Source: a virus (Duplodnaviria > Caudoviricetes). From it: 64,000 nucleotides of DNA. Position 1 is the stretch's first letter. The number at the start of each line of letters is the position of its first letter. The notes under the pieces were generated by a model. That model was not told where the DNA came from, ran no database searches, and saw only the letters and a program-made list of their open reading frames with translations. A program made the position numbers and the translations under genes. Below, piece by piece: positions 8,518 through 10,346 of this stretch. Where the stretch lies: positions 10,014-74,013 of the IMG/VR virus record IMGVR_UViG_3300033547_000001; one strand, 5' to 3'.

Positions 8518-8631
8518 AAGGCCCGACGTCGGGCCAGAAACGGGGTCTGGGCTCGTTATTCCGGAGTCCGCGCTACCACCGTAGCCAAAAAACGGAGATG
8601 ATCTTCTTTGGTCGTCTCGGGGAAGGGTTCC

Positions 8632-9228
8632 ATGAACTGCCTAAAATGCCACAAAATAAAGCAATCGGTTGATTTCTACAAAAATTCCCGCACTTGCAAG
8701 GTCTGCACAAGAAACGCCAGCGCCGAGTGGCGCTCGAGGAATAAGACGAGAGATCGTGCTCGACGGCAACAATATTACGCAGATAATTGCGACAGGATCT
8801 GTGCGAAATCGCTAGCACGCTACTATGCCAAAAAGGATGAAATCCTTCCGAAAATCAACAGACGAGCACTAGAACGCCGAACCGACGATCCGATGGTGAA
8901 GCTTACACATCGCATCAGAGTTAGGATGTCGAAAGTGATCAAAGGCAAGGTTCCTGCCGATTGGCTGAGTATCCTCGGCTATCATCCGCGGCTTCTAGTC
9001 CCGCACCTAGAAGCCTTGTTCGAACCTTGGATGTCCTGGGGCAATTATGGCACAGAGTGGCATGTTGATCATAAGCGACCGGTTTCGTCGTTTAAACTTC
9101 CAGAGCAGCTGCGAGAATGCTGGGCACTGTCGAATTTGCAGCCTCTGCGTTCGATAGACAATCTGAAAAAGGGTGCTCGATGGTCAAAGAATTTGGACAA
9201 TAAAAAAAGCCCCCTCGATTCCGCCTGA
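8632..9228 (+). CDS. Free-standing HNH endonuclease with N-terminal Zn motif
   Basis: CLKC..CKVC; WHVDHKRP...WALSNLQPL...NLKKG; AT-rich. Confidence 0.85.
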   Translation: MNCLKCHKIKQSVDFYKNSRTCKVCTRNASAEWRSRNKTRDRARRQQYYADNCDRICAKSLARYYAKKDEILPKINRRALERRTDDPMVKLTHRIRVRMSKVIKGKVPADWLSILGYHPRLLVPHLEALFEPWMSWGNYGTEWHVDHKRPVSSFKLPEQLRECWALSNLQPLRSIDNLKKGARWSKNLDNKKSPLDSA

Positions 9229-9244
9229 GCGAAATCAAGGGGGC
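9202..9244 (-). terminator. Intrinsic terminator ending the leftward late transcript
   Basis: GCCCCCTCGATTCCGC/GCGAAATCAAGGGGGC stem with a T7 tract on the minus strand, at the convergence of the two operons. Confidence 0.8.
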
Positions 9245-9254
9245 CTTCTGAATT

Positions 9255-9330
9255 TGGAGCCTCAGGGATGGACTTGAACCATCGACCTCCGGTTTACGAA
9301 ACCGGCGCTCTACCACTGAGCTACCGAGGC
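9255..9330 (-). tRNA. tRNA-Thr (anticodon CGT), CCA encoded
   Basis: GCCTCGG-TA-GCTC AGTGGTA GAGC-G-CCGGT TTCGTAA ACCGG-AGGTC-GATGG TTCAAGT CCATC-CCTGAGGC-T-CCA; one extra nt in the acceptor 3' strand. Confidence 0.93.
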
Positions 9331-9335
9331 GAAGG

Positions 9336-9410
9336 TGGCGCCGCTCGTCAAACGGGCAGGGAAGACGAGCGGCACCAAGTCTAGGGAGGAAACGCCCAAG
9401 GAGGGCACCA
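9336..9410 (-). ncRNA. Candidate three-hairpin sRNA with anti-Shine-Dalgarno loops (cuckoo/alpha-r14/CcsR-like)
   Basis: GCCC-TCCTT-GGGC; GTTT-CCTCCCT-AGAC; 14-bp TGGTGCCGCTCGTC/GACGAGCGGCGCCA hairpin with a C-rich loop. Confidence 0.55.
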
Positions 9411-9420
9411 CGGCTTCGCG

Positions 9421-9912
9421 TCAATGTATCGGTGCGTGAGAGACAGCGAAGCCAAGAAATGCGATAGCCCCTCCGACGACGACGGCGGCGCCGACGACGA
9501 TCGCCCCAATCATACCTATACCTTGGGACTTGCCGCCGCTCTCCCAGCGGAATTGTTCCTGCTTTGCCATGCGGTCCGACAGGTCGTTCTTGACCTCTCT
9601 GAGCTGCGTCGCCAGCAGCAGCGCTGCGGCGTCCTGATTGGCGCGGAGGATCTTGGCCAGTTCGAGATCGAAGGTCAGCTTCTCCGCGGCCAGCTCGTTG
9701 ATCCGGCGCGTCTCGGCGTCGCGCAGGCCGTCCTGGCGCCTGCTTTCGGCGTCACGCATGGCATCCTGATATTTCGACTCGGCGTTGACCCACGCCAGCA
9801 CGTTCTTGGTCGGGTCGATCGCCGGGCGACCGAGGGCGTCGACGGTGAGACCGTGGCCCGGGAAATCATCGGAGTTGTTATCCGGATTGTGCTGACGAGC
9901 CGCCACCATCAA
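9421..9912 (-). CDS. Coiled-coil protein with C-terminal transmembrane helix (lysis cassette)
   Basis: DPTKNVL motif, heptad-like region, GIGMIGAIVVGAAVVVGGAIAFLGFAV TM. Confidence 0.7.
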   Translation of the reverse strand: MMVAARQHNPDNNSDDFPGHGLTVDALGRPAIDPTKNVLAWVNAESKYQDAMRDAESRRQDGLRDAETRRINELAAEKLTFDLELAKILRANQDAAALLLATQLREVKNDLSDRMAKQEQFRWESGGKSQGIGMIGAIVVGAAVVVGGAIAFLGFAVSHAPIH

Positions 9913-10346
9913 CCTACCGACAGTGCGATGATGAGATAAATCAGGTTAAGCGCCATCACCAGCAGCCACCAGCGATGCCCGTAGCGATGGGTGGATAGCG
10001 CAGCCAGGATCCAGATGTTCGAGGCGGCGGCGCCGAATGTCCCAGCGAGCATCAGCCAGAAACCCAGCATCAGCCCGGGACCGCGCCACAGCGCTACCCC
10101 GACGGTCAGCACCGAGGCCGTCACCGTCCATGCGAAGATCGCGGCACCGAGGCAGATGCCATAGCGGCGCACGTTGTGCATGTCGACGATGCGCGACAGA
10201 GATGGGTGGCCATTGCTGACGCCAAACGGGTTTTTCAATTCGATCAGCAGAAACCACGCCAGGAACGATCCCAGCGCAACGCGATTGATGACGGAGACGA
10301 TGTTGGCCAGATCGAGAATGTGGTTAAGTTCCTGCGTCGTCATCAT
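9909..10346 (-). CDS. Multi-pass membrane protein (holin candidate)
   Basis: About four hydrophobic segments in 145 aa. Confidence 0.65.
   Translation of the reverse strand: MMTTQELNHILDLANIVSVINRVALGSFLAWFLLIELKNPFGVSNGHPSLSRIVDMHNVRRYGICLGAAIFAWTVTASVLTVGVALWRGPGLMLGFWLMLAGTFGAAASNIWILAALSTHRYGHRWWLLVMALNLIYLIIALSVG

What the first reader, a model, noticed from the sequence alone, without database searches (positions are those of the whole stretch)
9255..9410. Phage-encoded anti-Shine-Dalgarno sRNA in tandem with a tRNA at the end of the lysis operon
Seen: within about 10 nt of the last lysis-gene stop come three hairpins exposing CCUCCUU (exact complement of AAGGAGG), CCUCCCU and a C-rich loop; five nt later tRNA-Thr begins, then a terminator. 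Established: alphaproteobacterial cuckoo/alpha-r14/CcsR and AbcR sRNAs use such CU-rich loops to block ribosome binding sites, and RNase P cuts at tRNA 5' ends. Inference: the tRNA acts as a processing signal that releases a phage sRNA able to silence host or phage mRNAs late in infection. I know of no description of this arrangement in a phage.
Basis: partly seen in the sequence, partly recalled or inferred. Interest (0 to 1): 0.72.

Follow-up and report, generated by a model that had tools for sequence, protein, structure and literature searches.

The report
Phage MmgR-type small RNA fused to tRNA
A 74-kb soil or rhizosphere phage carries a copy of a well-known alphaproteobacterial regulatory small RNA (the alpha-r8/MmgR/SisA type, which blocks ribosome-binding sites); unusually, this copy has lost its own terminator tail and sits 5 nt in front of a tRNA gene, so a tRNA-processing enzyme probably cuts it free.

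Summary
On the minus strand, between the stop codon of ORF 9421-9909 and tRNA-Thr(CGU) (9330-9255), lies a 90-nt structured stretch. A strong terminator follows the tRNA at 9248-9205.

It is not an unknown RNA. Positions 9406-9340 match Rfam RF00519 (suhB/MmgR, the alpha-r8 family) at 38.1 bits. The gathering score is 41; E is 7.7e-8 for the genome. The 30-nt core is 29/30 identical to the family consensus.

The same 28-nt core occurs in 94 IMG/VR viral contigs, in deposited Bradyrhizobium phages (unannotated there) and in at least 120 bacterial genomes.

This copy differs in four ways:
- It is 5'-truncated and has no recognisable promoter.
- Its terminator-homologous hairpin has a 14-nt C-rich loop.
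- It has no U tail.
- A tRNA starts 5 nt after the hairpin.

A directly abutting tRNA was seen in only one other of 94 viral copies and in none of 120 bacterial copies.

Most likely the RNA is transcribed with the late operon. RNase P would make its 3' end, and its conserved UUUCCUCCCU seed would then act on host ribosome-binding sites. Expression, processing and targets are inferred, not shown.

This scan had already noted MmgR-type RNAs in other prophages. I found no paper describing them in phages.

Verdict: a new variant of a known kind, of moderate interest.

The parts
9421..9909 (-). Upstream gene, the last protein gene of the long minus-strand late block. It encodes 162 aa with a coiled coil and a C-terminal transmembrane helix. 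Function unknown.
   Evidence: ORF and gene call. 195 homologues, all unnamed. No Pfam or PHROG hit. The same strand further upstream carries fibres, tail, capsid, portal and terminase.
9409..9420 (-). 4-bp mini-hairpin CGCG-AAGC-CGUG. It is the remnant of the loop and 3' arm of the 5' hairpin seen in other copies.
   Evidence: MFE fold. Homology to the closest sampled copy, L103, begins at 9420, directly after the stop codon (56 nt, 93%).
9394..9406 (-). Hairpin SL1, GCCC-UCCUU-GGGC, the 'weak hairpin' of alpha-r8 RNAs. The UCCUU loop is exposed.
   Evidence: Rfam RF00519 model positions 8-20. Loop unpaired probability is 1.0 in the 90-nt RNA.
9378..9393 (-). Single-stranded linker holding the family-defining 10-mer UUUCCUCCCU (9392-9383), the anti-Shine-Dalgarno seed.
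   Evidence: Exact match to the RF00519 consensus and to the 10-mer named in PMC12559287. Mean unpaired probability is 0.91.
9336..9377 (-). 14-bp GC-rich hairpin with a 14-nt C-rich loop (9363-9350). It is homologous to the family's terminator stem but has no U tract after it.
   Evidence: model positions 40-62. The tail has 2 U in 8 nt, against a median of 5 in 87 viral copies and 7 in 118 bacterial copies. The loop is longer than in any of those.
9331..9335 (-). Spacer CCUUC between the hairpin and the tRNA. The predicted RNase P cut lies between 9331 and 9330.
   Evidence: Sequence. The cut site is inferred from the tRNA 5' end.
9255..9330 (-). tRNA-Thr, anticodon CGU, with CCA encoded.
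   Evidence: ARAGORN; RF00005 57.3 bits. ACG makes up 41% of Thr codons in 18 late genes.
9205..9248 (-). Intrinsic terminator (20-bp stem, U7) ending the sRNA-tRNA unit. It overlaps the 3' end of the convergent endonuclease gene.
   Evidence: Terminator scan; fold.
8608..9228 (+). Convergent HNH / endonuclease VII-like gene next to the cassette. It may be a mobility partner.
   Evidence: PHROG 1035, E = 2e-19.

Best explanation
The stretch 9420-9331 (minus strand) is a phage-borne derivative of the alphaproteobacterial alpha-r8 sRNA (MmgR in Sinorhizobium, SuhB in Sphingopyxis, SisA-D in Caulobacter).

What it keeps: the weak first hairpin, the invariant single-stranded seed UUUCCUCCCU, and the terminator-type stem.

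What it has lost: the 5' hairpin arm and promoter on one side, and the U tail on the other.

Proposed mechanism (inferred):
1. It is transcribed as the 3' end of the late minus-strand operon, together with tRNA-Thr, up to the strong terminator at 9248-9205.
2. RNase P cleavage at the tRNA 5' end creates its 3' end, 5 nt after the 14-bp hairpin. That hairpin should block 3' exonucleases.
3. Its 5' end comes either from endonucleolytic cleavage near the stop codon (ACAUU at 9427-9423 fits the RNase E-type RNWUU motif) or from a weak internal promoter (TTCGCT-N16-TACATT).
4. The freed RNA of about 87-95 nt pairs through the 10-mer, and perhaps the UCCUU loop, with ribosome-binding sites of host mRNAs. 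These would be the same ones the host's own alpha-r8 RNA controls, such as carbon-storage, transport and metabolism genes. Infection would then impose that programme.

What is shown: homology, anatomy and the rarity of the arrangement.
What is inferred: expression, processing, Hfq use and targets.
For: - RF00519 match: 38.1 bits, E = 1.3e-6 for the region and 7.7e-8 for the genome. The core is 29/30 identical to the consensus, and it is the only copy in the 74-kb genome.
- The exact 28-nt core occurs in 94 viral contigs. Of 15 tested, 14 reach the Rfam gathering score at 41-73 bits. It also occurs in at least 120 bacterial contigs.
- The core is identical while the flanks match no sampled copy closely. 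The best is L103, 56 nt at 93%. This is the family-wide pattern of a conserved seed with free hairpins.
- The seed is predicted 91% unpaired in the 90-nt RNA, but only 48% unpaired while 200 nt of mRNA remain attached.
- There is no U tract after the stem, the tRNA starts 5 nt later, and the next terminator comes after the tRNA. Any transcript of the sRNA must therefore run into the tRNA.
- The promoter motifs seen in other copies are absent: CATAGG in viral copies and CTTGC-N17-CATATT in bacterial copies (scan).
- The seed mechanism is proven for SisA by compensatory mutations, and the family traits are defined in PMC12559287.
- The element is unambiguously inside a complete phage genome (CheckV 100%, about 165-nt terminal repeat), with phage genes on both sides.
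Against: - The score is below the Rfam gathering cut-off.
- The Rho-independent terminator, which is a family trait and the usual Hfq-binding 3' end, is missing. A CCUUC 3' end is not a typical Hfq site.
- No RNA ends, strand or abundance could be obtained. Metatranscriptome contigs cover both strands' genes evenly and break at the core because the host mmgR shares it.
- All six other occurrences of the locus are 100% identical, so there is no covariation or selection signal for this lineage.
- No close phage relatives exist to show that the cassette is retained over time.
- The host is unknown.
- No specific target was found inside the phage genome.
Confidence: 0.5

Rival explanations
1. Cis-acting 3'-end module. 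The hairpin plus tRNA serve only to give the long late mRNA a defined, exonuclease-resistant 3' end after RNase P cleavage, and to express the tRNA. The alpha-r8 sequence is simply the material the hairpin was built from and has no trans-acting role.
For: - There is no promoter of its own and no U tail.
- The 14-bp hairpin lies 5 nt from the predicted cut.
- Viral copies in general have weaker terminators than bacterial ones, a median of 5 versus 7 U in 8 nt. They often sit as read-through leaders in front of HNH-terminase genes. This suggests cis roles for phage copies.
Against: - A stabilising hairpin does not need the 30-nt core, yet the core is letter-perfect while the flanks have diverged from every sampled copy.
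- The seed is predicted to be exposed.
Confidence: 0.2
2. Decaying relic. A prophage-type alpha-r8 gene was captured, perhaps with the tRNA and the neighbouring HNH endonuclease as a mobile cassette, and was truncated at both ends. It is no longer functional, and its identity to the core reflects recent capture.
For: - The 5' truncation lies inside the ancestral 5' hairpin.
- The U tail is lost and the score is sub-threshold.
- The more distant phages that share the upstream gene lack the cassette.
- An HNH gene is adjacent.
Against: - The flanks and the hairpin loop differ from all 214 sampled copies, yet the stem is a perfect 14 bp and the core has no change. This is not what neutral decay gives.
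- The donor may simply be unsampled, so this argument is not decisive.
Confidence: 0.17
3. tRNA leader or attenuator. The structured 5' leader regulates the amount or maturation of tRNA-Thr, for example by pairing with the tRNA 5' half in the precursor.
For: The MFE fold of the 226-nt precursor pairs the sRNA 5' half with the tRNA 5' half. In that precursor the UCCUU loop is only 32% unpaired.
Against: - The centroid structure keeps the separate hairpins and a cloverleaf-like tRNA.
- No other tRNA in the sampled data has such a leader.
- The sequence is explained by homology to a trans-acting sRNA.
Confidence: 0.08
4. Plus-strand reading. GGGAGGAAA and AAGGAGGG are Shine-Dalgarno sites for the plus-strand ORF 9424-9939.
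For: An ATG lies at 9424 and a 171-aa open frame follows.
Against: - The spacing from AAGGAGG to the ATG is 18 nt.
- The frame is the antisense shadow of a minus-strand gene that has 195 homologues.
- The motifs are explained by the RF00519 match on the minus strand.
Confidence: 0.01

Closest known systems
alpha-r8 sRNA family (Rfam RF00519 suhB; MmgR of Sinorhizobium meliloti, SuhB of Sphingopyxis granuli, SisA-D of Caulobacter crescentus)
   Same: - Weak first hairpin GCCC-UYCUU-GGGC.
- Invariant single-stranded 10-mer UUUCCUCCCU with an anti-SD signature.
- GC-rich 3' stem whose 5' arm (GCCGCU..) resembles the family terminator.
- 29/30 identity to the core consensus.
   Different: - No U tail (model positions 63-77 unmatched), a 14-nt loop, no own promoter, and a truncated 5' part.
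- Located in a phage at the 3' end of a protein operon and fused to a tRNA, not a free-standing chromosomal gene next to the FGase gene.
- 38.1 bits, below the gathering score of 41.
Phage- and prophage-borne alpha-r8 copies
   Same: Same exact core, carried by phages. The closest copy, L103, shares 56 nt at 93%.
   Different: - Typical copies lie between an upstream terminator plus a CATAGG motif and their own (often weak) terminator. They are frequently just upstream of HNH endonuclease and terminase genes.
- This copy lies at the far 3' end of the late block, has neither motif nor U tract, and abuts a tRNA.
- Only L042 also has a tRNA (tRNA-Met), 12 nt after its terminator stem.
   Same: CU-rich anti-SD motifs used to mask ribosome-binding sites in Alphaproteobacteria.
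   Different: The sensitive Rfam scan reported only suhB for this stretch; within a clan only the best overlapping match is kept. In those families the motifs sit in hairpin loops. Here the main seed is a linker.
Non-coding RNAs whose 3' end is made by RNase P at a downstream tRNA or tRNA-like element (mammalian MALAT1-mascRNA), and small stable RNAs co-transcribed with the phage T4 tRNA cluster. Both are cited from my own knowledge and were not checked here.
   Same: The upstream RNA has no terminator of its own. A tRNA (or tRNA-like) fold supplies the processing site, and a structure just upstream protects the new 3' end.
   Different: Those are unrelated RNAs in other systems. No bacterial or phage anti-SD sRNA matured this way is known to me. 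Processing here is inferred only.
3'-UTR-derived sRNAs of bacteria (for example CpxQ and SroC; own knowledge)
   Same: The sRNA lies directly after a stop codon, probably has no promoter, and would be released from the mRNA by endonucleolytic cleavage.
   Different: Those share the mRNA's intrinsic terminator as an Hfq-binding 3' end. Here the 3' end would come from RNase P.

Membership tests
alpha-r8 / RF00519 (suhB, MmgR) | Internal single-stranded 10-mer 5'-UUUCCUCCCU-3' | tested here: met
   Exact at 9392-9383. Mean unpaired probability is 0.91. The trait is as stated in PMC12559287.
alpha-r8 / RF00519 (suhB, MmgR) | Weak hairpin directly upstream of the 10-mer (GCCC-UYCUU-GGGC) | tested here: met
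   9406-9394; model positions 8-20 aligned with posterior probability '*'; present in the MFE and centroid folds.
alpha-r8 / RF00519 (suhB, MmgR) | Rho-independent terminator (GC stem followed by a U tract) | tested here: not met
   The stem is present (9377-9336) but the tail ACCUUCGC has 2 U in 8 nt. Of bacterial copies, 115 of 118 have at least 4 U; of viral copies, 71 of 87 do. Model positions 63-77 are unmatched.
alpha-r8 / RF00519 (suhB, MmgR) | Score at or above Rfam's gathering threshold (41 bits) | tested here: not met
   38.1 bits. Of 15 other viral copies, 14 score 41-73 bits.
alpha-r8 / RF00519 (suhB, MmgR) | Independent gene with its own promoter | tested here: inconclusive
   No sigma-70-like site was found by the scan. 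The CATATT and CATAGG upstream motifs of other copies are absent. By eye there is only a weak TTCGCT-N16-TACATT.
alpha-r8 / RF00519 (suhB, MmgR) | Occurs in Alphaproteobacteria (host range of the family) | tested here: inconclusive
   The host is unknown. The capsid protein is under 50% identical to any isolated phage. Only 1 of 401 Hyphomicrobiales genomes has a capsid match, at 46%. The samples are rhizosphere, root and soil.
alpha-r8 / RF00519 (suhB, MmgR) | Hfq-associated, represses targets by pairing at the RBS | not testable with these tools
   Needs Hfq binding assays or RIL-seq and reporter assays.
tRNA (RF00005) | Cloverleaf with anticodon, above the gathering score | tested here: met
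   57.3 bits against a gathering score of 29. ARAGORN calls tRNA-Thr(CGU). CCA is encoded.
RNase P-matured upstream ncRNA (MALAT1-mascRNA-like logic) | Upstream RNA lacks its own terminator and is immediately followed by a tRNA fold; cleavage is demonstrated | tested here: inconclusive
   The anatomy is met. Cleavage is not testable here, because the metatranscriptome contigs give no ends.

The most novel reading that the evidence does not exclude
In this phage a tRNA gene has replaced the intrinsic terminator of a host-mimicking alpha-r8 sRNA, so RNase P rather than termination makes the sRNA's 3' end. This would be a bacterial-virus counterpart of MALAT1-mascRNA. The resulting U-tail-less RNA would act late in infection, possibly without Hfq, on the host's conserved alpha-r8 regulon (carbon storage and uptake) to redirect resources to virion production. 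More broadly, alpha-r8 copies would be a widespread 'auxiliary regulatory RNA' of alphaproteobacterial phages.
Probability: 0.3. Interest if true: 0.75.

Novelty: new variant of a known kind. Interest (0 to 1): 0.55.

Why it matters
Alpha-r8 RNAs (MmgR, SuhB, SisA-D) are core regulators of carbon status in Alphaproteobacteria, and their seed mechanism is now proven for SisA. Phages carrying exact-seed copies would be able to switch on a host starvation or carbon programme at will. That is a form of host takeover by RNA mimicry not described in the literature I could search.

This phage adds a mechanistic twist: an sRNA without a terminator whose 3' end must be supplied by tRNA processing. If it is active, this tests whether an alpha-r8 RNA can work without the U-tail that Hfq normally binds. 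It would also give a natural example of tRNA-guided sRNA maturation in a bacterial virus.

It also has an annotation consequence. RF00519 at the gathering threshold misses this copy, and deposited phage genomes leave their copies unannotated.

Tried and rejected
- Rfam at the gathering threshold found only the tRNA. The sensitive scan was needed.
- Nineteen viral loci sharing the upstream gene have no tRNA or sRNA after it. They share only that one gene with this phage, and their records have no RF00519 match above 15 bits. They say little about when the cassette was gained.
- Six further occurrences of the locus in metagenomes and metatranscriptomes are 100% identical, so they give no covariation.
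- The pattern core+N40-70+TAGCTCAG gave 0 hits in viral contigs and one chance hit in AT-rich DNA without a tRNA in metagenome contigs.
- The junction-specific 26-mer gave 0 hits in genome contigs.
- Sequencing runs: four metatranscriptome libraries hold the region as Logan contigs. Coverage spans genes of both strands. Contigs break at 9375-9407 because a host-type mmgR transcript shares the core. No ends, strand or level can be read, so this neither supports nor refutes expression.
- Target search inside the phage genome found no complement of 10 nt or more to the seed apart from the element's own antisense. The top RNAduplex hits fall on spurious ORF starts.
- Host assignment failed. Capsid tblastn against isolated phages stayed under 50% identity, and only 1 weak hit appeared in 401 Hyphomicrobiales genomes.
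- Literature searches for MmgR, alpha-r8 or the 10-mer together with phage found no description. PMC5370414 is not held.
- The plus-strand ORF 9424-9939 was rejected as an antisense shadow.
- The tRNA as a host attB was rejected, because the window lies inside a complete 74-kb phage genome.

Full report
**Where the window comes from**

The window is bases 10014-74013 of a single 74,013-bp virus record. It has 61% G+C and CheckV rates it 100% complete. Its ends share a direct repeat of about 165 nt with one mismatch.

On the minus strand the genes run from primase/helicase through terminase, portal, capsid, tail and fibres. They continue into a set of small membrane proteins ending with ORF 9421-9909. 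The element therefore lies inside a phage, at the 3' end of the late gene block. It is not at a prophage/host junction.

**Checking the observation**

On the minus strand the stop codon TGA is at 9423-9421. After it come, in order:
- a 4-bp mini-hairpin (9420-9409);
- the hairpin GCCC-UCCUU-GGGC (9406-9394);
- an unpaired linker (9393-9378) containing UUUCCUCCCU;
- a 14-bp hairpin (9377-9336) with the loop UUCCCUGCCCGUUU;
- the 5-nt spacer CCUUC;
- tRNA-Thr(CGU) at 9330-9255;
- a terminator with a 20-bp stem and U7 at 9248-9205.

The 95-nt stretch folds better than all 200 dinucleotide shuffles (z = -4.3).

- The second motif is in a linker rather than a hairpin loop.
- Only UCCUU of the first motif is in a loop.
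- The 'lysis' label for the upstream genes has no significant support.

**What the element is**

A sensitive Rfam scan matches 9406-9340 to RF00519 (suhB / 'Makes More Granules Regulator', the alpha-r8 family). The score is 38.1 bits against a gathering score of 41. E is 1.3e-6 for the region and 7.7e-8 for the genome. Model positions 8-62 of 77 are matched. The core GCCCUCCUUGGGCGUUUCCUCCCUAGACUU differs from the consensus at one position.

The unmatched model parts are the 7-nt 5' leader and the U-rich tail.

According to PMC12559287, alpha-r8 RNAs are defined by three traits: a weak hairpin, the single-stranded 10-mer UUUCCUCCCU, and a Rho-independent terminator. The family occurs in all Alphaproteobacteria except Rickettsiales. 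In Caulobacter, SisA represses a large regulon by pairing the 10-mer with 5' UTRs, as proven by compensatory mutations. MmgR limits PHB accumulation in S. meliloti.

**How common the RNA is in phages**

The exact 28-nt core is present in 94 IMG/VR contigs, with 87 distinct flanks. Of 15 tested, 14 reach the RF00519 gathering score over the full model, at 41-73 bits.

It also occurs, unannotated, in Bradyrhizobium phages ppBeUSDA76-1 and ppBdUSDA122-1. In ppBeUSDA76-1 it lies just upstream of the HNH endonuclease and terminase genes.

Typical viral copies share a layout. An upstream terminator hairpin is followed by CATAGG-N-TGTGCGG, then a 5' hairpin, the core, and a rather weak terminator. 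About 35 of 81 are followed by an HNH endonuclease gene.

They have a CTTGC-N17-CATATT promoter, strong U tracts, and a tRNA-Val about 1.6 kb downstream. Single bacterial genomes carry up to 10 copies.

Earlier notes of this scan had already reported MmgR-type RNAs in prophage late-gene leaders. My results agree with that gene order. I found no paper describing alpha-r8 RNAs in phages.

**What is different in this phage**

1. The copy is truncated at the 5' end. The closest sampled copy, L103, aligns over 56 nt at 93%, from 9420 to 9365. That alignment starts inside what in L103 is the loop and 3' arm of the 5' hairpin. The 5' arm and any promoter motif are therefore missing.
2. The terminator-homologous stem is intact (14 bp) but its loop is 14 nt, longer than in any of 205 other copies.
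3. The 8 nt after the stem contain only 2 U. The medians are 5 in viral and 7 in bacterial copies.
4. A tRNA starts 5 nt after the stem.

A tRNA this close is rare:
- Among 94 viral copies, only L042 has a tRNA close by (tRNA-Met, 12 nt after a weak terminator). L105 has one 229 nt away.
- None of 120 bacterial copies has a tRNA within 800 nt.
- A pattern search for the core plus a TAGCTCAG-type tRNA found nothing else in viral or metagenome contigs.

**Most likely mechanism**

The stem has no U tract and the next terminator lies beyond the tRNA. Any RNA polymerase that transcribes the sRNA will therefore continue through the tRNA. No promoter is evident, so the simplest source is read-through from the late operon.

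RNase P must cut at the tRNA 5' end to make a functional tRNA. That same cut leaves an upstream RNA ending ...GGCGCCACCUUC, with the 14-bp hairpin 5 nt from the end as a barrier to 3' exonucleases.

The 5' end could come from cleavage at ACAUU, which overlaps the stop codon, or from a weak TTCGCT-N16-TACATT promoter. Neither is tested.

In the freed 90-nt RNA the 10-mer is predicted 91% unpaired and the UCCUU loop 100% unpaired. With 200 nt of mRNA attached, the 10-mer is only 48% unpaired. Processing would therefore expose the seed.

By homology the RNA would repress mRNAs through their ribosome-binding regions. The seed is identical to the host family's, so the natural targets are the host's alpha-r8 regulon. 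I found no specific target in the phage genome.

The lack of a U tail argues against classical Hfq binding and is the main mechanistic uncertainty.

The tRNA itself looks functional (57 bits, CCA encoded). It reads ACG, which makes up 41% of Thr codons in 18 late genes.

**Rival explanations**

- The hairpin-tRNA pair may only define and protect the 3' end of the late mRNA.
- The sRNA may be a relic of a captured cassette. An HNH endonuclease gene converges on it.
- It may be a tRNA leader or attenuator. The precursor's MFE fold pairs it with the tRNA 5' half, but the centroid structure does not.

The perfectly conserved core next to diverged flanks, together with an intact stem, argues against pure decay. 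An unsampled recent donor cannot be excluded, because all other occurrences of this locus are 100% identical and no close relatives of the phage exist.

**RNA data**

Seven metatranscriptome runs hold parts of the region. I laid the contigs of four of them on it. They cover both strands' genes at similar depth. They break at 9375-9407, where a host-type mmgR transcript shares the core (depth 13.8 in one run). They give no ends, strand or level, so they do not bear on expression.

**Verdict**

The element is homologous to a known sRNA family, and it fails two formal membership tests: the terminator and the gathering score. It is best described as an alpha-r8-derived, terminator-less sRNA module fused to a tRNA in a phage.

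This is a new variant of a known kind. It is of moderate interest in itself, and of more interest as part of a widespread, unpublished presence of alpha-r8 RNAs in alphaproteobacterial phages.

Noticed in passing
L116:1500-1575 (record G003, about 900 nt downstream of the homologue of ORF 9421-9909): A different CU-rich stretch (CCCUUCCUGUCCCUG...CCCACCCUACUU) followed by a terminator, at a comparable place in a distant phage. It scores only 14.9 bits to RF00519. It may be an unrelated or strongly diverged anti-SD-like RNA.
   Followed up: partly
L020-L113 (IMG/VR contigs with the core): Viral alpha-r8 copies share an upstream terminator hairpin directly followed by CATAGG-N-TGTGCGG (43 distinct loci). 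Their U tracts are weaker than in bacterial copies (median 5 versus 7 U in 8 nt). About 35 of 81 are followed by HNH endonuclease genes. This looks like a read-through leader of the packaging operon.
   Followed up: partly
L120-L239 (bacterial contigs): Chromosomal alpha-r8 genes show a conserved CTTGC-N17-CATATT promoter with repeated TGCNNNGC boxes, which may be AniA/PhaR-type sites. They also have a tRNA-Val(GAC) about 1.6 kb downstream. Methylobacterium oryzihabitans has 10 RF00519 matches and Bradyrhizobium altum has 7.
   Followed up: partly
PP395640.1 42325-42356 (L249): 'Microcystis phage Mwe-JY08' carries the exact alphaproteobacterial alpha-r8 core in a region annotated only with hypothetical proteins. 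The cyanobacterial host label looks doubtful.
   Followed up: no
window 9421-9909 (-): The 162-aa coiled-coil protein with a C-terminal transmembrane helix has at least 195 homologues in viral and metagenome contigs. None has a name or a Pfam domain. It is the only gene this phage shares with the 19 'related' loci.
   Followed up: partly
window 9375-9407, run X5 record 14: A 266-nt metatranscriptome contig (depth 13.8) carries the same core flanked by a different terminator and the GCGCUAUCGC 5' hairpin. This is a host-type mmgR transcript expressed in the same rhizosphere sample.
   Followed up: no
genome ends (outside and at the end of the window: genome 1-165 and 73849-74013): The two ends share a direct repeat of about 165 nt with one mismatch. 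IMG/VR classes the record as linear.
   Followed up: no
window 9200-9425 (-): In the MFE fold of the sRNA-tRNA precursor, the sRNA 5' half (including SL1) pairs with the tRNA 5' half. The centroid keeps them separate. This could sequester the UCCUU loop before processing.
   Followed up: partly
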